Positions 18,221 through 60,250 of a stretch of DNA of 64,000 bases are shown in pieces. This DNA comes from Lama guanicoe. Taxonomy: Eukaryota. Both the position numbers and the translations under genes were made by a program. Position 1 is the first letter of the stretch; the number at the start of each line of letters is the position of its first letter. The stretch lies in contig MU053136.1 of assembly GCA_013239625.1 (NCBI GenBank), positions 700,017 through 764,016 of the forward strand, written 5' to 3'. The notes beneath the pieces are model-generated. The model was not told where the DNA came from. It made no database searches and saw only the letters and a program-made list of their open reading frames with translations.

Positions 18221-19940
18221 TTTTTTTTTTAATTGAAGTATTGTCAGTTTACAATGTTCTGTCAGTTTTTGGTATACAGCACAATGTTTCTGTCCAACAT
18301 ATACCTACATATATTCCTTTCCGTATTTTTTTCCATTATAGTTTACTGCAAGATATTGCTTATAGTTCCCTGGGCTATACAGTATAAACTTGTTTGTCTA
18401 TTTTATATATAGTAGTTAGTATCTGCAAATCTCAGACTCCCAGTTTATCCCTTACCACACCCTTCCCCTCCGGTAACCATGAGTTTGTTTTCTATGTCTC
18501 TGAGTCTATTTCTGTTTTGTAGATAAGTTCATTTGTGTCTTTTTTTTGTTTGTTTTGGATTCCACATATGAGCGATCACATATGGTATTTTTCTTTCTCT
18601 TTCTGGGTTACTTCACTTAGGATGACGATCTCCAGGTGCATACGTATTGCTGCAAATGACATTATTTTATCCTTTTTCATGGCTCGGTAGTATTCCATTG
18701 CATATGTGTACCACAACTTCTTTATCCAATCATCTGTTGATGGACATTTAGGTTGCTTCCATGTCTTGGCTGTTGTAAATAGTGCTGCTATGAGCGCTAG
18801 GGTGCCCGTATCTTTTCAAATTAGAGTTTCCTCTGGATATATGTCCTGGAGTGGGATTGCTGGATCATACGGTAAGTCTATTTTTAGTGTTTTAAGGAAT
18901 CTGCATGCTGTTTCCCATACTGGTCGCACCAAACTACATTTCCATCAACAGGGTAGGAGGGTTCCCTTTTCTCCACACCACCAGCATTTATTGTTTGTGG
19001 ACTTTTGAATGATGGCTATTCTGACTGGTGTGTGGTGATACCTCACTGTAGTTTTGATTTTCATTTCTCTGATAATGAGAGATACTGAGCATTTTTTCAT
19101 GTGCCTATTGGCCATTTGTATGTCTTCATTGGAGAATTGCTTGTTTAGGTCTTCTGACTATTTTTTGATTGAGTTGTTTGCTTTTTTTGTTGTTGTTATT
19201 AAGTTATATGAGCTGTTTGTATATTTTGGAAATTTAGCTTTTGTCTAATAATTTGCAATTATTTTCTGCCATTCCATAGGTTGTCTTTTTGTTTTGTTTA
19301 TAGTTTCCTTTGCTGTGCAAAAGCTTATAAGTTTAATTAGATCCCATTTGTTTATTTTTTCTTTTATTTCTATTGCCTGGATAGACTGCCCTAGCAGAAC
19401 ATTGCTGATTTATGCCAGGGAATGTTTTGCCTATGTTTTCTTCTAGGAGGTTTATAGTGTCTTGTCTTATGTTTAAGTCTTTAAGCTATTTTGAGTTTAT
19501 TTTTGTGTATGGTGTATGGGAGTGGTCTAACTTCACTGATTTCCATGTGGCTCTCCAGCATCCCAACAACACTTGCCAAAGAGGCTGCCTTTTCTCCACT
19601 GTATATTCTTGCCTCGTTTGCCGAAGATTAATTGGCCATAAGTATGTGGGTTTATTTCTAGGCTGTCTATTCTGTTTCATTGATCCATATGTCTCTTTTG
19701 TGCCAATACCATGCTCTTTTGATTACTGTAGCTCTGTACTATTGTCTGAAGTCTGGGAGGGTTATACCTCTAGCTTTGTTATTTTTCTTGAATATTGCTT
19801 TGGCAATTCTGGCTCTTTTGTGATTCAGTATAAATTTTAAGGTTATTTGTTTTAGTTATGTGAAAAATCTCCTGGATAATTTGATAGGGATCACATTAAA
19901 TCTGTAGATTGCTTTGGATAGTATGGCCATTTTAACAGTA
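18221..19940 (-). mobile_element. L1 3' portion (ORF2 C-terminus plus 3' UTR), older subfamily
   Basis: Poly-T at 18221; ORF2-like peptide remnants on the minus strand (19486-19680 ...HTPYTKINSK); interrupted by the younger L1 at 19941. Confidence 0.9.
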
Positions 19941-22900
19941 TTTTTTTTTACATTTTTTTTATTGAGTAGTAGTCATTTTACAATGTTGTGTCAAATTTCC
20001 AGTGTAGAGCACAATTTTTAAGTTATACATGAATATATATATATGCACATATATATTCATTGTCAGTTTTTTTTTCGCTATGAGCTACCACAAGATCTTG
20101 TATATATTTCCCTGTGCTATACAGTATAATCTTGTTTATCTATTCTGCATTTTAAAATCCCAGTCTGTCCCTTCCCACCCTGTCCCTCCCCCCCCGCCCC
20201 CTTGGCAACCACAAGTTTGTATTCTATGTCTATGAGTCTGTTTCTGTTTTGTATTTATGTTCTTTTTCTTTTAGATTCCACATATAAGTGATCTCATATG
20301 GTATTTTGCTTTCTCTTTCTGGCTTACTTCACTTAGAATGACATTCTCCAGGAACGTCCATGTTGCTGCAAATGGCGTTATGTTGTCGGGTTTTGTGGCT
20401 GAATAGTATTCCATTGTATAAATATACCACCTCTTCTTTATCTAGTCATCTTTTGATGGACATCTAGGGTGTTTTCCATGTCTTGGCTATTGTAAATAGT
20501 GCTGCTATGAACATTGGGGTGCAAGTGTCATTTTGAAGTAGGGTTCCTTTTGGATATATGCCCAGGAGCGGGATTCCTGGGTCACATGGTAAGTCTATTC
20601 CTAGTCTCCTGAGGAGTCTCCATACTGTTTTCCACAGTGGCTTTCCTTGCTTCCCTCTCTCATTCTCAGTGATTTGGATGTCTTCTTTTACAATTCTGTG
20701 TTTATTCTTTTTGTAATTCATGGTAGTCATCACCTTTCCAGTTACGAGTTTCTCATTTCTGTAGCATCCTGCTGCTTTTCTATTTAGAGTAGACCTGTCA
20801 ATATTTCTTTTAGCGTGGGTTTAGTGTTGCTAAACTCTTTTAGTTTTTGCTTGTCTCTGTGAAGTTCTTCATCTCTCCTTCTATTCTGAAGGACAGCCTT
20901 GCTGGATAGAGTATCCAAGGCTGCATCTTTTTTTTCATTCAGGACTTTGAATGTATCTTGCCACTCCCTTCTGGCCTATAGAGTTTGTGTCGAGAAATCA
21001 GCTGAGAGCCTTATGGGGGTTCCCTTGTAACTCACTCTTTGTTTTTCTCTTGCTGCCTTTAGGATCATTTCTTTATCGTTGACTCTGGCCATCTTGATTA
21101 TGGTATGTCTTGGTGTGGGTCTGTTTGGGTTCTTCCTGTTTGGGACCCACTGAGCCTCCTGTACTTGGATATCTGATTCTTTCTTTAGGTTTGGGAAGTT
21201 TTCAGTCATGATTTCTTCCAATACCTTTTCAATCCTCTTTGTCCTTTATTCCCCTTCTGGGACCCCTATTATGTGTAAATTGGCACGCATTATATTATCC
21301 CATCGGTCCCTTATATTGTTTTCATTGTTTTTTATTTGTTTTTCTCTCAGCTGTTCTGATTGGGTGCTTTCTGCTGTCCTGTCTTCTAGGTCACTTATTT
21401 GTTCCTCTGCATTATCTAGCCTGCTTTGGACAGCCTTTAGGTCAGCTCTCATCTCAGCAAATGAGTTTACTAATTCTACTTGGTTCCTCTTTATAGCTTC
21501 TATTTCATTTTTGACATATTTTATATCTGTTTTAGTTCCTTCTGTACTTTGATCACTCCTTTTTTGAAATCTTGATCTAGTAGGCCATCAATGTCTATTT
21601 TCTTGATCATGCTTTCAGGGGATTTCTCTTCATCTTTTAATTGGGAGTGGTTCTTCTGCTTCTTCATCTTGCTCATATCTCTCTGGCACTGTGGCTTAAG
21701 GAGTATCAGTTATCTAGTTCTCTTGGGGAGGGTGTGCTCTTAATGATTTTATTGAGAGGTCTTTGTGTCTTCGCCCTGTTTCACGAACTCAGCTTGCTGT
21801 TTCCAGAGGCCCTCTGTTGGTGCCCTCATCTGTGCTGCTCCCAGTGGCTGTTGGCTAGCAGATCATGAACCCTCCCAACACTGGGTCTGGTGCTGAGCTC
21901 TTACCCAGTGGGCGGGTGGGTCACTCCCCTTCCCGATGCCGCAGTCAGATGCTGTGCTTGGGCGGGTGAGACAGGTGGGCAGATTGTGCCCCCTCCCAGC
22001 ACCGTGGTCAGGTGCTGCGTTCCTGCCGGGAAGGCAGGTGGCCGCCCGCCCTCTTCTGGCGCTGGTTGCTCCGCTGCTCTGTGCAGCTGTGCGCTCCACC
22101 TCAGGTCAGTGCTCCGAAGGTGGGCTCGGGGAAGACCGTGGAATGGTCCTGCCCCTGCTCCCTGCCACATGGTGCGAATTCTCTGAGGTGCCAGGGCAGA
22201 AAGATCCTATCTGCCTCAGGCTGTAAACAAGTCTCAGTCCTGCCTAGGAGGTTGCGGAGCCCCTAGATATGGACTCAGGGCTCGGCCCCGCCCCTGCCCG
22301 GGTGCAGCGTACAGGAGGAGGTGGCGGCTGTGGCTGCGCCTGCCTCTCTTCTTGCAAGAAGTGCCAGTAATGGCGGTGCGGGTCTGAGGAGACAAAGGCT
22401 ACGGCGCCTCTCCCCCCAGGGCACACCAGCCGTGTTGCTTTGCTTGTTTTGCAATTTATGGGGGACTGAGGTTGTTCTGCCCGTATCCCCTCCCAGCCGT
22501 GGCGCGCAGCCCCCTGCAGTCCCCCCGGGCTGCCTCAGTGCAGCCGCCCCTGTCCTCTGCCCGGCTCACCCGGCCTGTCCCAGTCCCCGGCTTGCGTCTC
22601 GGGCTGGGTGTCGCGGGGACCCTTTGTGCCTATTTAACTCAGTTCTGTCGGTCAAGGGGTGCTCGGGGCAGATTGAGCCTCGGAGGCTCCCCCTCCGTCC
22701 CTCTGGCCTCTCCGTTGGAGAGGGGGGAAGACCCAGTGAATGAGTGCTAGTCCTCCTTTGCCGCTCCCTCCCTGCAGGATTGATCCCGCACTGTTTTGAT
22801 ATTTGTTCTTTCTTTTTTCCTTTTCTCCTACCAGATTTTTGGCGTCTTTGTCTTTTGAAGAGGGCGATGTTCTGTTGGAATTCATTAAGTGCTCTGGTTG

Positions 22901-22986
22901 GCTGCGTGGGTCCATAGAAGTGAGTTTTGGTGTATTTGTGGGAGAAGGTGAGCTACGAGTGTCCTTCTACTCTGCCATCTTGGCCC
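19941..22986 (-). mobile_element. L1 with 5' UTR and ORF1 but lacking nearly all of ORF2 (about 3 kb)
   Basis: L1-type 5' end (GGCCAAGATGGCAGAGTAGAAGGAC on minus), CpG-rich 5' UTR, disrupted ORF1 21676-20784 (SRLDNAEEQISDLEDR, ENFPNL...RPTPRHTIIK), spacer joined at 20641/20640 to ORF2 C-terminus PLWKTVWR, then 3' UTR and poly-A. Confidence 0.9.
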
Positions 22987-25397: not shown

Positions 25398-25710
25398 ATG
25401 TGGTTGTGCCTGGTGGTCCTGCTGGGCCTGTACCACCTCCTGCGCTGGTACCGGGAGAGGCAGGCGGTGAGCCACCTCTGGGACAAGTACGTCTTCATCA
25501 CGGGCTGTGACTCGGGCTTCGGGAACCTGCTGGCCAGGCAGCTGGACCTGCGAGGACTCAGGGTGCTGGCTGCGTGTCTGACCGAGAAGGGGGCCCAGCA
25601 GCTGAGGAAGCAGACGTCCGACAGGCTGGAGACGGTGATCCTGGATGTCACCAAGACAGAGAGCATCGCTGCGGCCACCCAGTGGGTGAAGGAGCGTGTG
25701 GGGGACAGAG
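25398..25710 (+). CDS. RDH16: RDH16-like retinol/sterol dehydrogenase, exon 1 of 4 (317 aa total)
   Basis: ATG 25398, hydrophobic N-terminus MWLCLVVLLGLY, Rossmann motif TGCDSGFG, donor GAG|GTATGG; 313 nt. Confidence 0.9.
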
Positions 25711-27304
25711 GTATGGCCCACATCTCTCAAGTCTGGTCTTGTCTCTCTGTAAGGGGAAGCCCTTGTCTGGTTCCTGGCGAAGATTCTCTCTGTGTTTTCC
25801 CACACCTGAAGCCCCACCTCATTCCACATGTCTCCCAGGGTAGTGGGGTGGGCGTGGGGCTCTGGCTGGAAGGGTGCACGGGTTGGGTGGGGCTGCCCTG
25901 GAGCACTTTAACATGTTCCTTCTGGTGACCCGTAATCATGTGTTTTGGGTTTAAATGTCACCCATTTCAGATGATGTAGCTGAGATCAGGACTCGTTCTA
26001 GGTCTAGCAGGGCCATCACTTTCTCTCTGTTTCCTGTTTTCCTTTTCTTCTTCTTCTTTTTCATTTCTAAATATTTTACAATTCTGCGTGTGTTTTACAA
26101 GGGAGGTAAAGAACTTCAATTTCTTTTATCTAAGTATAAACGTGAAACGTGATCATTGTGAAAAATCAGAAAATTTAGGGACAAAAATCACGTGCACTCA
26201 GTACCTCGCTACTTAGACACAAGTACTGTTAACATTTATATATGTGTGGTGTTAGGTTTTGCACATAGTTGTTATCCTGTTCATTTCATTTAATGAGCAT
26301 TTTAACAACATAATAAAATTGCTTCAAACACGTAATTTTAAAAGAATGAGAATATTCTATCCTTTTGAATAGCATTACTTACAAAAATACTATATTATGG
26401 TATGGTAAAAACATTACTTCCTCCTTTTTTGTTCATTCTATTCATCGTAAATGATGTTTGGTAAACTTTTCTTTACTCAAATCTCTACTCTGTCATCATG
26501 TATATTGACTGGTTCTTAGAAGTCAGAATCTGGTGAACGTCCCATAAGGGCAGGCCAGTTCCTGAGAGGCGGAGGGAGTGAACTGTGTGTGTCAATGCTT
26601 CTGCCACCCTTGCCCCTACTCCTCTGAATTCCTCCTTCTGCTCCCCTCAGTTCTGTTGGTTGGTAAGTCTTCAAGTCTTTGAGATTGTGTCTTTGGGTCT
26701 TCAAGAGAGGTTTCCGTGAAGCTGAGTGAACTGTACACTGAGGGGGGTTGGGCCAGAGTGGCCTCCTGTGTGGGTAGAAGAGAGGCTGGAAGAGAGGGTG
26801 GCACTTGCTGGGACAGGGGGTGAGTGCTGTATTGGGGGAGGCAGTAAGGAGGCATCCTTGCCTCCCCCTGAAAGCCTGCCTCTGGGGACTCCCCAGAGCC
26901 CTGCAGGAACATTGCTCAGTATTGATGCAGGGTGTCTGAGGGCTGGTCCTCTCAGACTCGACCTGTCTCCACAGTCCCCCAAACCTAGGGTTTCAGATCT
27001 GTTTACTCAACCAATCTGTACTCAGACATACAGGTGTGACAACGCAGAACTTAATTCTCGGTAGTCCAGACTGTGGACACAGCAGACTCCCTCCTCCTCA
27101 GCCCCTGCCTCCGTCAAAGCTGGGTGCTTGCGCGCTGCCCCCGGGCAGCGGGCTGGGCCAGGGGCCCCGAGTCCGGAGGAAGGCGCACCTGTCGTCCCGC
27201 ACTTACGGGGCTACTCTGCCCTGACCCCGGCAGCACGCTGCTATCTGTCCCAGCTGCTCCCCATGCAGCCTCTCTCCTAAAGCCGTCGCTGGACTGGAAG
27301 GTGA

Positions 27305-27745
<441 letters not shown>

Positions 27746-28392
27746 TAGAGTCTCTTTGCCCCAGAACCTTCTCTCTTGCTTTTGCCAGGCATTCACTGTG
27801 AAGCTCCTTTTAAGTTCTTGGTATCAGGATGGGCTCTAGGAGTATAGAGATCAAGTGAATGTACCTCTGCGCTGGAGGAGGGCCCAGAATTGGAAAGTGA
27901 GGCAGAATTGTCACCAATATAGCTTGACTACAGGGTGTCCATATACATCACTACTGTGCTGCGAGGTTGGGGGGAGCCTGGGAGGCAGTGTGACCCCGTG
28001 GAAGCAGTTAATCAAGGGAGCTAATTAATTGTATCAGTGGTAGAGAGTCTAGTGGCTGCAGGGCTGGGGGTGGCTTGAGTGTGGGGTGGGGAGTGACCCC
28101 AGGTAGGGAGACGCTTCTCAGAGGACATTCTGACAGCCCAGCGGATGGATGGCCAGGGAGCTGACTGGTGAGGAGAGGAGAGAGGAAACTGAGGAGTGTG
28201 GAGGAGGTAAATTGTACAAAGCCCGGGGACTGGCTGGGTGCCAGGTGAATATGAGGAGATAGCATTTAAGGGGCACCTTGCGGCACAACTGGTAAGATTG
28301 GGAAGTATAAGCACATGTATGGAAAATCTTGGGAAAACGTTTCTCCCGCTGGCCCTCTGACGTTCTTGCCTTTATGCCTGTCTGCACTGCAG

Positions 28393-28556
28393 GAGGGAGC
28401 TCTCCCACTTTGGGGTGAAGGTGGCTATGATCGAGCCCGGTTTCTTCAGCACCAATATAACCGATGTGGAGGCATTTTCTCAGAGTGTCCGGACAGCATG
28501 GGATCAGGCCAGCCCAGAGGTCAAGGAACTCTATGGAGAGACGTTCGTGTCCACCT
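28393..28556 (+). CDS. RDH16: RDH16-like exon 3
   Basis: 164-nt exon RELSHFGVKVAMIEPGFF..., donor GTGAGT, frame preserved. Confidence 0.92.
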
Positions 28557-29097
28557 GTGAGTGAGCTGTGGACCTCGGGGAGAGAAGCAAACCCTTGTCT
28601 GGAAGCCTGGGTCATCATTAGTGCCCCCTCCAGGCTCAGGTCCATCCTCCACACTCTGAACCCCATCCCCCAACAGTGGGGACATCCCCAGGGTCCCATG
28701 TGGTGAACTGGTGACCCAAGGAATGTATCCAGGCCTTGTACACCCGGGGACCACTGTCTCCTCTTACCTCTTATTTGGGGATGAAATTGAGCCAAGGAGG
28801 GAAGACATCCACGTACTCATGGCAGGATGGTGTTAGGGCCAGGCTGGCTTAGGCACCTAGATTTCCAGTGTTTGTGGAGAGCTCCGGTTTATGCGGTGCA
28901 CACATTCCCAGGAGTCGAGGCGGAGGGGGCTAGTGAGGACTGTGACAGTGGGGTAAGACTGAGGACACGCTCGAGTGAAACCCATGAATTGCATTTGGAG
29001 TGTAAGTGCTTTTTTAGGAACTTTTTTCTTTAGTGTATCTGAAAAGTGGGAGGGTTGAGACCTGAGAATAATTTGGATGGTGTCTCCCTCTGAACAG

Positions 29098-29315
29098 TCC
29101 TGGAGTCACTTGAAACACTGAAACCAAGATGGTCCAAGAATCTGTCCTTGGTGACGAACTGCATGGAGCACGCCCTGACCGCCTGCCACCCCCGCACGCG
29201 ATACTCCTGTGGCTGGGATGCCAAGCTCTTCTACCTCCCCATGAGCTACATGCCCACCTTCCTGGTGGATTTCTTGGCCTACTGGAGCTCCCCAAGGCCT
29301 GCTCAGGCCCTGTAG
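29098..29315 (+). CDS. RDH16: RDH16-like exon 4
   Basis: 218 nt to TAG: ...[35 protein letters not shown]...; spliced CDS 954 nt = 317 aa; AATAAA at 29920-29925. Confidence 0.92.
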
Positions 29316-30878
29316 CCCCAAACTAGGGTGCGTGGGGGGGCGGGGTACTATGTGAGGGAGGGGATGCGTCAGTGAAGGGAAATGCAGTGGAGAGGGGATC
29401 TCGTGTCACCAGGGAGACCTGCCTCTCCTCCCTCTCCACCTCCTCCCCAGTCTTCCCGTGGGACATTACTGAGGACGCTGGGGATATTAGGAGGAAGGAA
29501 CCAAGTTTTGTGGTGAGGAACAGGGACCAATAGTTCATTTCTGTGTCTAGTTTCTTGATCAGTCCCTTAAGGCTCTGAGCCTTATGGCCCTCCTGCCACC
29601 CTGAGGAATCCACACGTTTTGGGGGGTGTGAGCTGCTGGAAGTGCATCAGCCCCCTCCCCCCTGCCCCTGTCCACCCCTGCTGGGGTGCCTTGGCCCTGG
29701 CCAGCCTCCCCCTCCCACAGGGTAGAAATGGCCTTGGGGAGGTAAAAGCCTCTCTTCCTTGATGACACCTGTGGACAGGGGTGAGGGGGGCAACCGCCAG
29801 CCTGGCACATCAGGCCAGGGTGAGGGGGTGTCCTCAACAGGGGTCCTGACACAAGACACAGATACCAACTTTTGATTTGTCATGAAACCATGCATTTCCA
29901 ATTATTATTTTTTCCTTAAAATAAAAGTTGGAATGTTTACCCAGGCCAGTGATTGGGACCAGGGCCCTGGGGAGCAGCGGGCTGTGGATCCAGGAGAGGA
30001 AGAGTCCGGTGCCTTCACAGAGGGGAAGGATGAGCGGATGGCCTGAGGAGGGGTTTGAAGAGGGAAGTGAAATCATCGCTTCTTCCACAGACGTGAGGGT
30101 ATAATATATAATAACAATCTTTCCACGGTTTGTCAAGGGACCTGGGTCACGGGGTTAGAGCCAAGGATGGACCCAGGGAGAGGTGTCTTAGGACTGCAGG
30201 GCCCAGACCCTTCCCTGGCAACGTGTAGCCTCTGGCTCCCCAGAAGCCTTTCTGTGGCCCTCCCTCTGTCCCCTCCTTTCAAGTCACTGTCTTCCATCCT
30301 TTGCCATCCCCGCGTTGCCCAACCTAGATCCCCTCCCTGACCCTCAAGGGGAGGGGAGTTAATTCTGTACCCCAGTCTTACGTTTTCTGCTAACCTTTAC
30401 TGAGCACCTACTGTGTGCTGGGCAGGAATTCCCTTGGTTTCCCAGGGCTTCCCGACTCTGCGTCACTGCTGCTTTCATGATGCTCTGAGTATGGACTCAA
30501 TGGAGAAGTCATTGGCACAGAGTCATACAGATTTCCAGGCTGAGTACAAATTTCAGTTGGGAGGTATCTTCCAGTCATCTTAACTCACCTTCCTCATTAT
30601 AAAAATGAGGTTATGCGGACTTTGGGGAATTTTATGCCTTTGAACAATATTTTATATTATATACCTTAAAAAGCATTGACTTATTCAGTCATTTGAAATG
30701 TCATCTAAGTAAACATTTACTGAGTGGGTTTGACATAAATGCAGACAGTGTGAACTGTAAGATCTAGATCAGAGGGGCCTCCAGTGTGAACAGGAAGATA
30801 CCTGAGGACCCCTCGACAGAGGGTGAGTGACAGAACTTGAGTACAACTTTAGCCTTCAGGCACTGTTCTCCGTGAGCC

Positions 30879-33712
30879 GTGTGGCTGTGCCCGGCGGCCC
30901 TGATGGGCCTGTGCCACCTCCTGCTCTGGTACCGGGAGAGGCAGGTGGTGAGCCACCTCTGGGACAAGTACGTCTTCATCACGGGCTGTGACTCGGGCTT
31001 CGGGAACCTGCTGGCCAGGCAGCTGGACCTGCGAGGACTCAGGGTGCTGGCTGCGTGTCTGACCGAGAAGGGGGCCCAGCAGCTGAGGAAGCAGATGTCC
31101 GACAGGCTGGAGACGGTGATCCCGGATGTCACCAGGACAGAGAGCATCGCTGCGGCCACCCAGTGGGTGAAGGAGCGCTTAGGGGCAGAGATACACCCGG
31201 ACTTCTTTTGTGTTTGTTTATTTCTTCTCTCTGAGCAAGAGGAACTCTCTTCTGCTCACTGGGAAGATCCCGAAGATGCTTTGATTTTCAAAGCCTTGCC
31301 CTTTCCTTGAAACTGATGCAGGGTGTTTCAGAGTCTGCCCCCTGATGTCCAATGCAGAGCTATTCTCTAGATTCTTCTGCCCTGGGTTTTCAAGTGTGCT
31401 TCTCCCAGACAGATTTTAGAAAGTGATTATTCATGTTTTTTTCTTTCCTTTTTCTCCTTTATTTCTTTTAAAAAAAATTTCCATTTTCCTTTCTCTTCTC
31501 TAGCTTTCCCTTCCTTTCTGTTTCTTACTCTTCCTCCTGCCTGTCTTTGTCTTTCTCCTATATGAGAAATATTCAAACTCTATCCGGAAGCAATAACCAT
31601 CATCATGAGATTTGTGAGCCCCATTCTACGTTCCCAAACTGTCTATGCATTTAGTTAAGATGGTTTTATTGCCTACTGAATGTAAGCAGTGGTAGAGCCC
31701 GTGCTCAGCATGCACAAGGTCCTGAGTTCAATCCCCAGTGCCTCCATGGAAAATAAATGAATAAAAATCTAATAACCCCCCCCTCCAAAAGAAGCCCCAA
31801 ACCAAACAAACAAACACGCACAAAAAACCCAGATACTTCTTTGCGATTTCTAAGAGTACACGATAAGTGTGTTGGGGACAAGAAGATTTGGTCTTTACCT
31901 GAAAAGTCTGACAGCTGAGAAAGGGACAGGAGATACAGAAATGTTGATCCCTTATGACCATCCCTTATGATGGTCATGACTAAGTTAGCCATGGTGGCCT
32001 TGGTAGGCAGCAGAATGAGGGGAGGGTCTGGGAGATAGGGACTGAGCTGAGGATTGACGAACTGAACTTGGGAACCTGGCAACCTGACGAAGTAGAGTGG
32101 GAAGACTTTCTGAGTGAGGGGATAGTGTCAGCCTAGGCCTAGGATGAGTAATGGTTGAACACTTATGCTGTGGGGTCCCTCAGGGGCAGGCAGAAATGAA
32201 CGAGTGGGATTATGGAGGGCTGTGGATCCCAGACAGACTATGGATCATTATGCTGTTTCCAATGGAACCCCATGGAAGGACTTTTATCAGGGGAGCTATA
32301 ATAATTGAATAAACCTCTAGAGAACCTACTGGCTGCAGAGCAGAGGATGGCTCAGAATGTGGGGCCCTGAGACCGTAGGTAGGGAGATGCTCCTTAGACA
32401 ACAGTTAAAATAACCCAGCTGACTGGTGGCCAGGTTGTTGACTAGAGCAGAAGAGGGGAGGAGGAGTGTGGAGGAGGTAAGGTGGGAAACTCCGGTGATT
32501 GGATAGATGTGAGGGGAATAGGAGGAGATAGCATATAAGTGGCGCTGAGCAGCACGGCTGGTAGGATTTAGAGCTGATAAGCACACGTATGTGAAATATT
32601 TCAAAAAATATTCAAACTCTATACAGAAGCAGTAACCGCCATCATAAGTTTTCTCTCCTTGGCTGCTGTGTTTCACAACTCCCTGACCTTTCAAACTTAA
32701 CCACCCCAGTCTGCGGTGAGGTTTTATTGATTTTGTTTGGCTCCCGTGGTGGCTGAAGACCTTGCCACTCTGCCTCTTGGCTAGCATACAGGAGCTCTCC
32801 TACTCTGGGATGACGTGGCTATGACTGAGTCTGGTTACTGTAAGACCAATATGACCAGCCCTGAGATGTTTTGGGGGGCTTACGGGCAGCATTGTACTGG
32901 TCCATCCCAGAGGTCTAAGGGGAAACGTTCTTAGCAGCAGGTGAGTGAGCCATGGACCTTGGGGAGAGAAGCAATCATTTCTCTGGAAGCCTGGGTCCAT
33001 CATTAGTACCTCCTCCAGTCTCAGGTCCATTCTCCAGGCTCTGACTCCCCCACGCAATGGAGACATGAGCTCCACCCCCAGGTCCTGTGTGGTCAACTGG
33101 TGACCTAAGGAAAGGATCTAGGCCTTGTAGACCCGAGCACCACTGTCTCATACAAACCCCTTGCTATTTTGGGAAGAAACTGTAAGCCTTAGAGGGATGA
33201 TATCCATGGACTCGTGGCAAACTGACATTAGAGCAGCTGGTTTTCATGTGCTTAGGTTTCTAATGTTTGTAGCAACATCCAATATGTATCAGATATTCTC
33301 AGAAATATGGCCAGAGGTCACTTAGTGTGGAACAGTTGTTCCTGTGGGAAGAATTTGGGCACTTCTTGGGAGATTTGGATGGGTTTGGGGTAGGGGGTGG
33401 CCAGGAATTCTTTGAAGCTTTCTTCCCATATTAGAGCTGTGAATTGGAGAGGAGGGATGTGGAAGTATATAAGGCAACTCTCTCATCCTGAACAGACATC
33501 AAAATAATAAAGTATTTTGAAACACTGCAAGTTGATTCTCTGTGCTTAGTCATGGACTTCACAGACATGCTCTGACCAGCTGCCTCCCACGCGTCTGATA
33601 CTCACCTGGCTGGGATGTCAAGCTCATCTCCCTCCCCACGAGCTACATGCCCTCCTTCCTGGTGGATGTCATGGTTGACTTGAGCTCCCCGAGGCCTGCC
33701 AGGGCCCTGTGA
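30879..33712 (+). pseudogene. RDH16-like unprocessed pseudogene (tandem duplicate)
   Basis: Exon 1 copy about 30879-31190 with GTG in place of ATG and donor GT changed to AT; no exon 2 found; degenerate exon 3 (about 32791-32940) and exon 4 (33496-33712) with indels and stops; introns and 3' flank similar to the intact gene. Confidence 0.88.
31687..31830 (+). mobile_element. tRNA-derived SINE, 5'-truncated, resembling camelid Vic-1
   Basis: cagtggtagag...gcatgcacaaggtcctGAGTTCAATCCccagtgcctcc (B box) followed by an A-rich tail. Confidence 0.7.
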
Positions 33713-36496: not shown

Positions 36497-36797
36497 ATGG
36501 CGGCTGACGCGGGCCTCTCCTTCATGTACCGCTGGTTCAAGAACTGCAATCTGGTCCGCAACCTCTCGGACAAGTACGTCTTCATCACGGGCTGTGACTC
36601 TGGCTTCGGGAACCTCCTGGCCAGGCAGCTGGTTGATCGGGGTATGCGGGTGCTGGCGGCTTGCTATACTGAGGAGGGGGCCTGGAAGCTTCAGCAGGAT
36701 ACTGCCTACCGGCTGCAGACCACCCTGCTGGATGTCACCAAGACTGAGAGCATCCAGGCGGCGGCCCAGTGGGTGAGGGACCAAGTGGGTGAGCAAG
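36497..36797 (+). CDS. SDR9C7: SDR family 9C member 7, exon 1 of 4 (313 aa total)
   Basis: [20 protein letters not shown]...TGCDSGFG; donor AAG|GTGGGA; 301 nt. Confidence 0.93.
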
Positions 36798-50500: not shown

Positions 50501-51933
50501 GAGTGGGGGTGATGAGAATGGATGAAACTAGTATATAATTTGGAGGTAAAACCACTGAAGAATTTTAATCAGTTAGTCCGTCAAGAAGAATTTATTGTGC
50601 TCTTACTATGTTCCAGGCATAGTGCCAGATGCTGAAGTTATAGTGGTGGACAAGACAGACAAGAAGCCCTTGCCTTCAAAGGGTTTGTGTTCTGGTAGGG
50701 GGAGGAGTTGGGCAATAGACAGAAAGAAATGAATGAAATAATTTTATACACTGGTCAATGCCATGGAAAAGAGAGAACGTAGTAATGCAGTAGAAGACCA
50801 GGGAAGCTGCTTCCTTTTTTTTTTTTAAATTCAATGTTATTGAGGTAAAATTTATATAACAAAATTTCATCCTTTAAGTTGTAAAGTTTGATGAGTTCTG
50901 ACATATGAATACACCTGTGCATCCACCAGCAGTCAAAATACAGAACATCTCTCTCATCCCAGGACGTTCCCCAGTGCCCATTTGCAGTTCATCATCCCTC
51001 CCCTCAGCCCTGGCTCCAGACAGCCTATAATGATCATGATAGTGTTGTTTTGAGGCTACTTACTTTTAAAGAAGATCACTTTTGCTGCCACTGAGGAATG
51101 AATTGGAATGAACTGGATTGGAGGGGACAAGAGAAGCAAGACTAGAGATGACGAGAGAGATGTGATAATACAATTACAGAAATCAGAATAACTGGCATTT
51201 GTTGGACATCTATTCAGTCGCAAGGGCTGTGCCTATTGCTTTCCATATATAATGTACTTAATCTCTGCAGCAAGCCATGTGCGTTTTACAGAGGAGGAAA
51301 CCAAGACTCAAAAAAGTTAAGTAATTTCCATGAATTACACAGCTGACAAATGGCGGGGTCAGGGTTCCAGCCCTTGCAGCTCGCTGTACACCACAATAGC
51401 CAACACACAGTGCTTACTGCATGCCAGGCACTCTTCTAAGCTCTTTAATATTCACAACAAAGAAGGATATTATTATTCAACTTTAATGAGGAAGATTGGA
51501 TAATTACATATCTTAAAGAGTAACTGGCTGAGCAGGTCCTTCTAGTTCCAAATCCTGTTCTTTGAACACATCATTGCTTTATTTCGTCCTGGGGAGCATC
51601 TCTGTGCACGCGCATTTGCAGCAGGGTTTTCGGGCCAGCAGATATGATGTGGTTTGCTTCTGCTTCCATGAACCTTCTGAACCTGTCCTAACCAGCCTTG
51701 CTTGGGCCTCTCTTTGAGCTCTTTCCCTATGAAAAGAGGGAGCCTCTGTCTTCCATGGGCCTCCTTTTCTCCTATGGGACATGCCTGCTTTTCACTTGAG
51801 CCTCAGCTGTCTGCTTGCCAATGAACCTCAACCCAAAAGTGAAGGGAGGTGGGAGGACAGAGCACCATTCAGGGTAAAATGGGGTTGGCTGGTCACTGAG
51901 CTATTGCCTGGCCAGATTGTTTGTGACATTCTT

Positions 51934-52657
51934 TTTTTTTTTTTAACATTTTTTTAATTGAGTTATAGTCATTTTACAATGTTGTGTCAAATTCCAGTGT
52001 AGAGCACAATTTTTCTGTTATACATGAACATTACATATATTATGAACATACATATATTCATTGTCTCATTTTTTTTCACTGTGAGCTACCACAAGATCTT
52101 GTATATATTTCCCTGTGCTGTACAGTATAATCTTGTTTATCTATTCTACATATGCCTGTCAGTATCTATAAATTTTGAACTCCCAGTCTATCTCTTCCTA
52201 CCCCCCTCCCCTTGGCAACCACAAGTTTGTATTCTATGTCTATGAGTCTGTTTCTGTTTTGTATTTATGTTTGGTCTTTTTTTTTTTTAAGATTCCACAT
52301 ATGAGTGATCTCATATGGTATCTTTCTTTCTCTTTCTGGCTTACTTCACTTAGAATGACATTCTCCAGGGACATCCATGTTGCTGTAAATGGTGTTATGT
52401 TGTCAGTTTTTATGGCTGAATAGTATTCCATTTAATAAATATACCACATCTTCTTTATCCAGTCATCCGTTGATGAACATTTAGGCTGTTTCCATGTCTT
52501 GGCTATTGCTAATAGTGCTGCTATGAACATTGGGGAGCAGGTGTCTTTTTGAAGTGGGGTTCCTTCTGGATATATGCCCAGGAGCGGGATTCCTGAGTCA
52601 TATCTTAAGTCTTTTCCTAGTCTTTTGAGGAATCTCCACACTGTTTTCCACAGTGGC
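51934..52657 (-). mobile_element. 5'-truncated young L1 with 17-bp TSD (2 mismatches)
   Basis: TTGTTTGTGACATTCTT 51917-51933 versus TTGTTTAAGACATTCTT 52658-52674; ORF2 C-terminal peptide [11 protein letters not shown]. Confidence 0.88.
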
Positions 52658-53024
52658 TTGTTTAAGACATTCTTGAACAACAACAGTGTAGATACTGCAT
52701 CCAGACCAGTATGAAAGGATACAGAGAATTTTAATGCCAAATTTGGAACAATAGCAAAATGTTCCTTTTGGAATTTCTGACAGAACAGGAGGAGTGAAGA
52801 TTTTAAAAACTGTGCATTTGTTTGATAATCAAAGATAAGTTTCAACCTGGAGATGAATATGAACTGCAAGTAAACACTTTTCAAAGGCAGAATTCAGACT
52901 CCACTCAAGAGTCATTTCAGAGGGCTTTGTAGTAAGAAGAAAAATACCAGCTCTTCCAAGGTTGCCAGGAAAGGAGAGATCTGAATTTCTCCTTCTACTG
53001 AAGGTGGAGGAGGAACCCCCTCCC

Positions 53025-53314
53025 CATGCAATTCTGCTATCTTCTGCGCTGATATCTGGAGAGGCCAGTGATGGGTGAGCCACTTCCAAGACAACCATGA
53101 CTTAATCGTGACATGTGACTCAGGCTTTGGGAAACTGCTGGCCAGGCCGCTGGACCTGTGAGGCTTGAGGGTACTGGCTGAGTATCTGACAGAGAAGGGG
53201 GCCCAGCAGCTGAGGGGCCAGATATCAGATAGGCTGGAGATGGTGACCCTGGATGTCACCAAGACAGCGTTGCTGCAGCTACCCAGTGGGTAAAGGAGTG
53301 TGTGGGAGACCGAA
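53025..53314 (+). pseudogene. Isolated, degenerate RDH16/HSD17B6-family exon 1 relic
   Basis: Encodes CDSGFGKLLARPLDL*GLRVLA...EKGAQQLRGQISDRLEMVTLDVTK with a stop and frameshifts; ends at donor GTATGG; no downstream exons found. Confidence 0.85.
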
Positions 53315-53431
53315 GTATGGTTTAAATACATTTCTCTTAATCTAGATGTCCTATTATTCCAAGTACTGGCCCCACAAGATGACACCAGCCTACTGGTGAG
53401 AGAGAGACACTATCTAGTTATAAAATGTGCT

Positions 53432-54828
53432 CTTTTTTTTAAATTGAGGTATAGTCAGTTACAATGTGTCAATTTCTAGTGTACAGCATAATGTTCCAGT
53501 CAAGCACATGTATACATATATTCATTTTCATATTCTTTTTCATTAAAGGTTGTTACAAGATATTGATTATAGTTCCCTGTACTATATAGAAGAAATTTGT
53601 TTTTTTTTAATCTATTTTTATATATAGTGGCTGACATTTGCAAATCTCAAACTCCTCAGTTTATCCCTTCCCACTCCCTTTCCCCTGGTAACCAAAAGAT
53701 TGTTTACTATGTTTGCGAGGCTGTTTCCATTTTGTAGATGGGTTCATTAATGTCCTTATGTTTTGTTTTGTTTTTTTTAGATTCCACATATGAGTGATAT
53801 CACATGGTATTTTTCTTTCTCTTTCTGGCTTACTTCACTTAGAATGACAATCTCCAGGTCCATCCATGTTTCCACAAATGGCATTCTTTTATTCTTTTTT
53901 GTGGCTGAGTAGTATTCCATTATATAAATATACCACATCTTCTTTATCCAGTCATCTGTTAATGGACATTTAAATTGCTCCTATGTCTTGGCTATTGTAA
54001 ATAGTGCTGCTCTGAACACTGGGGTGCATGTATCTGTTTGAATTAGAGTTCCCTGTAGATATATGCTCAAGAGTAGGATTACTGGATCATAGGGTAAGTC
54101 TGCTTTCAGTTTTTTAAGGAATCTCCATACTGTTTTCTATAATGGCTGTACCAAACTATATTCCCACCAACAGTGTAGGAGGGTTCCCTTTTCTCCACAC
54201 CCTCTCCAGCATTTATCATTTGTGAACTTTTAAATGATGGCCATTCTGACTGGTGTGAGATGATGCCTCATTGTAATTTTAATTTGCATTTCTTTGATAA
54301 CTAGTGATATTGAGCATTTTTTCATGTGCCTATTGGCCATTTGTATATCTTCACTGGAGAAATATTCTTTTAGATCTTCTGTCCATTTTTTGATTGAGTT
54401 GTCTGTTTTTTTGTTATTGAGTTGTATGAGCTGTTTTTGTATTTTGGAAATTAAACTCTTGTCAGTCACAACATTTGCAAATATTTTCTCCCATTCTATA
54501 TGTTATCTTTTTGTTTTATTTATGGTTTACTTTGCTGTGCAAAAGCTTATAAGTTTAATTAGGTCCCATTTGTTAATTTTTGCTTTTGTTTCTATCGCTT
54601 CAGTAGAGTGCCCTAGGAAATCATTGCTACAATTTACATCAGAGACTGTTTTTCCTATGTTCTCTTCAAGGATATTTATGGTGTCTTGTCTTATGTGTAA
54701 GTCTTCAAGGCATTTTGAGCTTATTTTTGTGTATGATGTGAGGGAGTTTTCTACAGCTGTCCAGCTTTCCCAACACCAGTTGTGAAAGAGGCTATTTTTT
54801 CTCCATTCGATATTCTTTACTCCTTTGT
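53432..54828 (-). mobile_element. L1 3' portion, older subfamily
   Basis: Poly-T head; ORF2 remnants ([27 protein letters not shown]...[10 protein letters not shown]). Confidence 0.9.
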
Positions 54829-55929: not shown

Positions 55930-56367
55930 TTTTTTTTTTTACAATGTTGTGTCAAATTCCAGTGTTCAGCACAATTTTTCAGTCATTCATGGACATATAC
56001 ACACTCATTGTCACATTATTTTCTCTGTGATTTATCATAACATTTTGTGTATATTTCCCTGTGCTATACAGTGTAATCTTGTTTATCTATTCTACAATTT
56101 TGAAATCCCAGTCTATCCCTTCCCACCCTCTACCCCCCTGGTAACCACAAGTCTGTATTCTCTGTCCATGAGTCTTTAGATTCCACATATGAGCGATCTC
56201 ATATGGTATTTTTCGTTCTCTTTCTGGCTTACTTCTCTTAGAATGACATTCTCTAGGAGCATCCATGTTGCTGCAAATGGCATTATGTTGTCAGTTTTTA
56301 TGGCTGAGTAGTATTCCATTGTATAAATATACCACATCTTCTTTATCCAGTCACCTATTGATGGATC
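55930..56367 (-). mobile_element. 5'-truncated young L1 with 13-bp TSD
   Basis: GAAGGTCATTCTT at 55917-55929 and 56368-56380; ORF2 tail peptide WIKKMWYIYTMEYYSAIK. Confidence 0.88.
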
Positions 56368-59879: not shown

Positions 59880-60250
59880 CCTCTAGCATGCATGCGCTCC
59901 CGGACAGGCCGAGGGCAGCGAAGCTGTGCGATCTCCCCGCGGGGAGGGGCGGAGCGGCCCCGCCCACAGCTCCGGGCCGCGGGGCGGGGCGCCGCCGCTC
60001 TGCACTCAGCCCGCTGCCGCCATCTTGAGTGGCGGAAGCCGGGCGCGTCTGCGCGCGGCACACGGAGCGAGGGGCCGCGCGTGGGGTCTGTGCACAGTCC
60101 GCCCACGCAGTCTGCCCTCGCCGTCTTGAATTGCAGGTCATGAGCCCACTTCTCCATACGGCCCACCTCCGGCTGCGCTGTCAGACGCAGCCGTTTTGCA
60201 CTAGAAACTCTAGTCTGAGGTGCCGGCTGCAAGGCCTCTGCCCGTGACAC
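59880..60250. promoter_or_regulatory. CpG island with housekeeping-type promoter motifs; no gene assigned
   Basis: GC boxes 59940-59990, YY1 GCCGCCATCTTG 60016-60027, ETS CGGAAG at about 60033, NRF1-like GCATGCGC and TGCGCGC. Confidence 0.7.

What the first reader, a model, noticed from the sequence alone, without database searches (positions are those of the whole stretch)
19941..22986. L1 with ORF2 apparently removed by RNA splicing: possible spliced half-L1 family
Seen: the element keeps its 5' UTR, ORF1 (stop at 20784) and about 140 nt of spacer, then jumps at 20641/20640 to the end of ORF2 (sense ...GCAAGGAAAG|CCACTGTGGAAAACAG). The non-deleted L1 at about 54145 reads TTTGGTACAG|CCATTATAGAAAACAG at the homologous spot, so an AG acceptor sits exactly at the junction, and AAG fits the exonic end of a donor. 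Known: spliced integrated L1s (SpIREs) and ORF1-only half-L1 (HAL1) elements exist in other mammals. Inference: a spliced, endonuclease/RT-less L1 RNA was retrotransposed in trans and may have founded a non-autonomous family.
Basis: partly seen in the sequence, partly recalled or inferred. Interest (0 to 1): 0.75.

Follow-up and report, generated by a model that had tools for sequence, protein, structure and literature searches.

The report
Camelid L1 copy lacking ORF2
A decayed jumping-gene (LINE-1) copy in a camel-family genome has lost its whole enzyme-coding middle; the cut looks more like an ordinary copying or repair accident than RNA splicing, and whether such half elements form a family is still open.

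Summary
The anatomy is real. A 3,046-nt camelid L1 (minus strand) keeps its 5'UTR, a decayed ORF1 and 143 nt of spacer, then joins the last 123 codons of ORF2, the 3'UTR and poly(A). About 3.7-3.8 kb (EN, RT, zinc knuckle) is gone.

Splicing is weakly supported. An arbitrary break can be drawn at an AG 22% of the time (YAG 10-12%). The acceptor has no pyrimidine tract. Only 1 of 2 intact window copies has the AG. A donor-like site 93 nt upstream was left unused. None of 36 pig L1 consensus hits has GT right after the aligned junction. A separate 5'-truncated copy (52657), whose 17-nt target-site duplication I resolved, starts at the same G, so a non-splicing break can give this end.

Best reading: a microhomology jump during reverse transcription (0.55). 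Splicing 0.13. The element has no TSD and sits in an older L1, so a composite origin remains possible.

Neither decisive test was obtained (GT in the camelid parent; genome-wide junction count). An amplified half-L1 family is untested (about 0.3). HAL1s are known, including in pig.

The parts
21677..22986 (-). L1 5'UTR, 60% GC, CpG o/e 0.47
20784..21676 (-). ORF1, decayed (2 stops, 3 frameshifts)
20641..20783 (-). first 143 nt of the inter-ORF spacer; alignable by eye to pig L1 spacers
20728..20736 (-). unused donor-like site AAG|GTGATG in the retained spacer, 93 nt before the junction; the second spacer copy P0140 also reads G-K-V here
20640..20642 (-). junction; A or AG can be assigned to either parent (1-2 nt possible microhomology)
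20271..20640 (-). last 123 codons of ORF2 (1 stop, 1 frameshift); no EN, RT or knuckle
19941..20270 (-). young camelid-type 3'UTR and poly(A); no TSD found
18222..19940 (-). copy D: older same-strand L1 (ORF2 3' part and older 3'UTR) that begins directly under the element's poly(A); its 5' part and 5' TSD are absent
51934..52657 (-). copy B: 5'-truncated L1 starting at the same G as the junction; TSD 52658-52674 and 51917-51933 (15 of 17 match)
53433..54827 (-). copy C: older L1 with continuous ORF2 across the junction-equivalent site (CAG present)

Best explanation
One camelid L1 copy of a fairly young subfamily, carrying a ~3.7-3.8 kb internal deletion that did not arise by GT-AG splicing. 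Inferred mechanism: reverse transcription primed at the poly(A), ran about 700 nt, broke off at A|GCCAC in ORF2, and the cDNA end re-annealed through 1-2 nt (A or AG) to the purine-rich spacer and went on to the 5' end. The jump happened either at this insertion or earlier in a source element that was then copied in trans as a half-L1; I put an amplified family at about 0.3 and could not test it. Shown: anatomy, junction, no TSD, same break base in copy B. Inferred: the RT jump, the deletion size (from pig spacer and ORF2 lengths), and the single-element origin. The copy is dead: ORF1 is broken.
For: Copy B is a plain 5' truncation whose L1 part starts at the same G; its preceding AA belongs to its 17-nt TSD. 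Chance of that coincidence is 0.4-1.2% under assumed exponential truncation lengths, which hints at a sequence-determined break site. A, E and F lack a ~22-nt 3'UTR segment that B, C and D keep, so A and B probably came from different source elements. 0 of 36 pig L1 consensus hits have GT after the aligned junction, while all 36 have GT 10 nt upstream, inside the retained part, where this element has GC (by-eye alignment). Acceptor context is 40% pyrimidine, at or below the median of 53 and 34 YAG sites in D and C. A donor-like AAG|GTGATG was left unused. ORF1 stop rate matches tail age (P 0.27) better than D age (P 0.06); 5'UTR CpG o/e 0.47.
Against: The camelid parent sequence after GGAAAG was never seen. 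The junction does sit at a probable CAG (C has it; Q precedes the site in 118 of 125 matched ORF2 proteins), which chance gives only 10-12% of the time as YAG. Pig is a distant outgroup for a fast-evolving spacer, and 20 of 36 pig hits have a second GT only 2 nt upstream of the aligned point. A and B are the closest pair in the 3'UTR (8.4%). No hairpin beyond shuffled background explains a pause (z 0.02, -1.0, 1.12). The missing TSD needs a second event (target-site loss).
Confidence: 0.55

Rival explanations
1. Spliced L1 RNA (donor in the spacer, acceptor in the ORF2 tail) was retrotransposed in trans: a SpIRE-like origin, with or without later amplification.
For: Junction falls exactly after a probable CAG; AAG fits a donor's exon end; YAG-compatible by chance only 0.10-0.12. 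The youngest pig spacers gained a GT 2 nt from this point (20 of 36), so a donor can arise here.
Against: 0 of 36 pig hits have GT at the point; if the G is aligned to the pig GT, the element keeps the G and the join is one base off a splice. No pyrimidine tract, and D lacks the AG. A donor-like site upstream was unused. Human SpIREs described use one 5'UTR donor and generally have TSDs; this element has none. Copy B shows the same end without splicing.
Confidence: 0.13
2. Composite locus: a resident full-length L1 (5'UTR, ORF1, spacer ... copy D) received a young 700-nt 5'-truncated L1, primed in ORF2 and joined to the spacer, deleting the DNA between (L1 insertion-mediated deletion). The 'half-L1' never existed as an RNA.
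For: One event explains no TSD around the element, D's missing 5' part, the same strand and the collinear order. The tail starts exactly like truncated copy B. Frameshift density in ORF1 (3.4/kb) equals D's (3.6/kb). Such deletions are documented (passages).
Against: ORF1 has 2 stops where D's rate predicts 5.5 (P<=0.087; likelihood ratio about 4 for tail age). 5'UTR CpG o/e 0.47 looks young. No TSD brackets 5' part plus D either, although C of similar age has none recognisable.
Confidence: 0.15
3. Ordinary later genomic deletion inside a full-length L1 that had inserted intact.
For: Old L1 copies decay by internal deletions (passages); 1-2 nt possible microhomology; the locus shows a second loss (no TSD, D decapitated).
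Against: Gives no reason for copy B to start at the same base (0.4-1.2% by chance).
Confidence: 0.15

Closest known systems
HAL1 / half-L1 (Smit 1999; Bao and Jurka 2010, seen only as citations in passages of PMC5753468, PMC5786205, PMC2241872), incl. pig HAL1_SSc (PMC6501411 supplement 1, part 1) and rat RNHAL1
   Same: 5'UTR + ORF1 + L1 3' end, no EN/RT, about 3 kb (pig consensus 3,016 nt); would need ORF2p in trans.
   Different: HAL1s are amplified families; only one copy with this junction is known here. Pig HAL1_SSc joins its spacer to AT-rich sequence and a short L1 3' tail and keeps no ORF2 tail that I could recognise by eye, so it is an independent origin.
SpIREs (Larson et al. 2018, PMC5860796; abstract, Introduction, first part of Discussion and passages read)
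   Same: Internally deleted L1 whose 3' breakpoint follows an AG.
   Different: Described SpIREs use a 5'UTR donor, lose promoter or ORF1 start, keep ORF2, generally have TSDs and are dead ends. Here promoter and ORF1 are kept, ORF2 is lost, no donor is shown and no TSD is found.
L1 insertion-mediated deletion and microhomology 5' joining (passages of PMC1920257; template switching in passages of bioRxiv 10.1101/2025.02.02.635956)
   Same: No TSD, short microhomology at the join, insertion in a pre-existing L1.
   Different: Those were defined with the empty site in hand; no empty site was available here.

Membership tests
HAL1 (half-L1) | ORF1 present, ORF2 enzymatic domains absent | tested here: met
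HAL1 (half-L1) | Keeps L1 5'UTR and L1 3' end with poly(A) | tested here: met
HAL1 (half-L1) | Many dispersed copies share the junction | tested here: inconclusive
   1 copy in the 64-kb window; no genome; DNA collections held no camelid L1 spacer; protein searches found no junction-spanning product
HAL1 (half-L1) | Inserted as a unit by TPRT (TSD around the whole element) | tested here: not met
   no TSD, while B, E and F gave 15/17, 14/15 and 19/21 matches; target-site loss could explain it
SpIRE | GT donor directly after the 5' junction in the parent | tested here: inconclusive
   camelid parent not seen; 0 of 36 pig hits have it
SpIRE | AG acceptor directly before the 3' junction in the parent | tested here: inconclusive
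   present in C, absent in D; G present in B; Q codon can be CAA or CAG; 40% pyrimidine upstream
SpIRE | Recurrent identical junction at independent loci | not testable with these tools
   needs a camelid assembly; none held
SpIRE | TSD and poly(A) | tested here: not met
   poly(A) yes, TSD no

The most novel reading that the evidence does not exclude
A GT-AG splice from the L1 spacer to the ORF2 tail removed the whole enzyme region but spared promoter and ORF1, and the product amplified as a camelid half-L1 family. That would be a spliced L1 that is not a dead end and a splicing route to HAL1s.
Probability: 0.07. Interest if true: 0.65.

Novelty: new member of a known kind. Interest (0 to 1): 0.3.

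Why it matters
As a single deleted copy it is ordinary L1 debris. If the junction recurs, camelids gain a half-L1 family; I found none described in the searches run, but Repbase and Dfam were not searchable and alpaca L1 entries exist there (L1-2_Vpa is named in PMC6726744). If splicing made it, it would be an exception to the dead-end view of SpIREs. The shared break base in two copies hints at a truncation hotspot in camelid ORF2, which is cheap to test.

Tried and rejected
No whole genome is held. No reads or contigs were laid on the junction, so copy number and the parent's letters after GGAAAG remain open. One search listed 21 runs (14 genome-scale runs, DNA status guessed or unrecorded, with 0.53-0.58 of words; 6 RNA runs with 0.07-0.24; 1 with none); unlaid, these are no evidence.

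DNA scans: 3'UTR motif 0 hits in viral and genome contigs. An 18-nt motif gave 12 chance viral hits; a gapped pattern gave 0. The ORF1 locus search gave 0 of 10 viral and 5 of 318 genome stretches, none with a matching spacer.

Proteins: spacer-frame searches found nothing except one 41-aa peptide, P0140, that ends before the junction. ZBTB39 exact look-up failed; the species is not fixed beyond camelid.

Rejected: copy B's 'AAG' as a second spliced junction (my first reading), because the AA is target DNA. The spacer-ORF2 in-frame ORF as functional, because both Met positions are Ile in P0140. An RNA hairpin as the cause. The tree is discarded: A tail and C were read in the wrong frame, and camel tails were an unresolved star.

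Supplements of PMC8605555 (camelid TE library) and PMC5872511 (horse and rhino consensus) could not be read and may bear on novelty and on the outgroup test. Belancio 2006 is not held; Bao and Jurka 2010 was not read. PMC5203782 has no camelid mention in its main text. Earlier scan notes gave no look-alike.

Full report
Setting. The window holds mammalian genes that I read as ZBTB39, GPR182 and RDH16/SDR9C7-like copies (names recalled, not from a call). All six NCBI-named proteins among the 120 listed hits to the element's ORF2 tail are Camelus dromedarius L1 ORF2 products at 81-88% identity, so this is a camelid L1. No genome is held.

Observation. On the minus strand the element runs 22986-19941 (3,046 nt): 5'UTR, ORF1 (21676-20784; Pfam PF02994 and PF17489 above cut-off; 2 stops, 3 frameshifts), 143 nt of spacer, then GGAAAG|CCACTG into the last 123 codons of ORF2, the 3'UTR and poly(A). 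Of 125 stored proteins matching the PLWKT motif, 118 have Q before it and none printed carries spacer sequence there. With pig spacers of about 390-530 nt and ORF2 of about 3.8 kb (PMC6501411 passages), about 3.7-3.8 kb is missing (inference).

Acceptor side. Copy C has CAG at the matching site; copy D has CGA. The pig consensuses read have CAA. Because the 5' parent is unknown, a break before, within or after an AG can all be drawn as an acceptor: 0.225 of positions in C and D qualify, 0.10-0.12 for YAG. The 20 nt upstream are 40% pyrimidine, against medians of 0.40 (53 sites) and 0.45 (34 sites). The site is a possible but unremarkable acceptor.

Donor side. The camelid parent was not obtainable. 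As an outgroup I read pig L1 consensus sequences (PMC6501411 supplement 1; a 9-letter word gave 37 hits, 36 in L1 spacers and one elsewhere in the file that I dropped; not every subfamily is covered). By eye they align with 20690-20641. All 36 have GT at the position of 20650-20649, 10 nt inside the retained part, where this element has GC. None has GT right after the aligned junction. The last 20 hits (also the pig spacer in PMC5381506's supplement) have a second GT 2 nt upstream of it, so donors can arise nearby; but if the element's last G is aligned to that GT, the G is retained and the join is one base off a splice. The retained spacer also holds AAG|GTGATG 93 nt earlier, read as G-K-V in a second spacer copy, and it was not used. 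This leans against splicing without excluding it.

Copy B. A copy at 52657-51934, 86% identical to the tail, first looked like a second junction (AAG|CCACTG). A TSD search shows a 17-nt duplication (15 of 17; 52674-52658 and 51933-51917), so the AA is target DNA and the L1 part starts at the G, the same base as in the element. With assumed exponential truncation lengths the coincidence has 0.4-1.2% probability. B keeps a ~22-nt 3'UTR segment shared with old copies C and D that A, E and F lack, so A and B probably derive from different source elements, although they are the closest pair by substitutions (8.4%). I read this as a hint of a sequence-determined break; folding shows no unusual structure.

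Insertion site. B, E and F have clear TSDs; the element, C and D have none. The element's poly(A) runs straight into ORF2 of the older same-strand copy D, whose 5' part is missing. This allows a composite model: a young tail replacing the middle of a resident L1. The age test favours a single element: ORF1 has 2 stops, expected 2.0 at tail rate and 5.5 at D's rate (likelihood ratio about 4), and the 5'UTR keeps CpG o/e 0.47 against 0.27 in the flank and 0.86 in an island. Frameshift density does not discriminate.

Family question. One junction copy in 64 kb. Scans of viral, genome and metagenome collections and four protein searches returned no camelid spacer beyond one short peptide. These collections hold little camelid repeat DNA, so this is absence of data, not evidence of uniqueness. 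I put an amplified family at about 0.3 by judgement: half-L1s arose repeatedly in mammals (passages), but this copy lacks a TSD.

Mechanism. Most likely (0.55) a reverse-transcription break at A|GCCAC with re-annealing to the purine-rich spacer through 1-2 nt, at this insertion or in a source element, plus target-site loss. Rivals: composite 0.15, later deletion 0.15, splicing 0.13. These are judgements from the likelihood ratios above, not computed posteriors.

Comparison and novelty. It has the build of a HAL1 but membership is not shown (recurrence inconclusive, TSD not met). It differs from pig HAL1_SSc, whose spacer joins AT-rich sequence and a short 3' tail. It differs from described SpIREs, which use a 5'UTR donor and generally have TSDs (PMC5860796 sections 4 and 17 part 1, passages). 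Searches listed no camelid half-L1 or spacer-to-ORF2 SpIRE; PMC8605555's main text has no HAL1 or ORF2 mention and its supplements were unreadable. Repbase and Dfam were not searchable. Verdict: a real half-L1-shaped copy of a known kind, cause probably not splicing, family status open; interest 0.3.

Noticed in passing
window 52657 versus 20641: Two L1 copies, probably from different source elements, have their 5' break at the same ORF2 base: possible truncation hotspot (0.4-1.2% by chance).
   Followed up: partly
window 20728-20736 (-): Donor-like AAG|GTGATG in the camelid L1 spacer, preceded by the same GGAAAG hexamer as the junction; a candidate donor for real spliced copies elsewhere.
   Followed up: partly
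window 55930-56365 (-): Copy E lacks about 30 nt right after the ORF2 stop relative to A and B; may mark a separate camelid subfamily.
   Followed up: no
window 25399-25716, 30880-31193, 36552-36792, 53035-53320; also 27370-33219: Cluster of RDH16/SDR9C7-like first-exon copies and duplicated downstream exons, some broken; the copy at 53035-53320 is on the opposite strand (gene names recalled).
   Followed up: no
window 20464-20820 (-): The junction falls on a codon boundary and leaves a 118-residue open frame from spacer into the ORF2 tail; the spacer Met codons are not conserved in P0140.
   Followed up: yes
L121:186-354; L120, L122, L123: Mammalian L1 ORF1 DNA in bacterial genome records (a Ruminococcus MAG contig end fused to a bacterial gene; short contigs of two isolates): contamination or mis-assembly.
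   Followed up: partly
P0005: A UniRef entry labelled painted turtle has a camel-type L1 ORF2 tail, nearly identical to dromedary proteins (alignment); probably a mislabel or contamination.
   Followed up: no
window 59900-60200: GC-rich promoter-like island near the window end, not examined.
   Followed up: no
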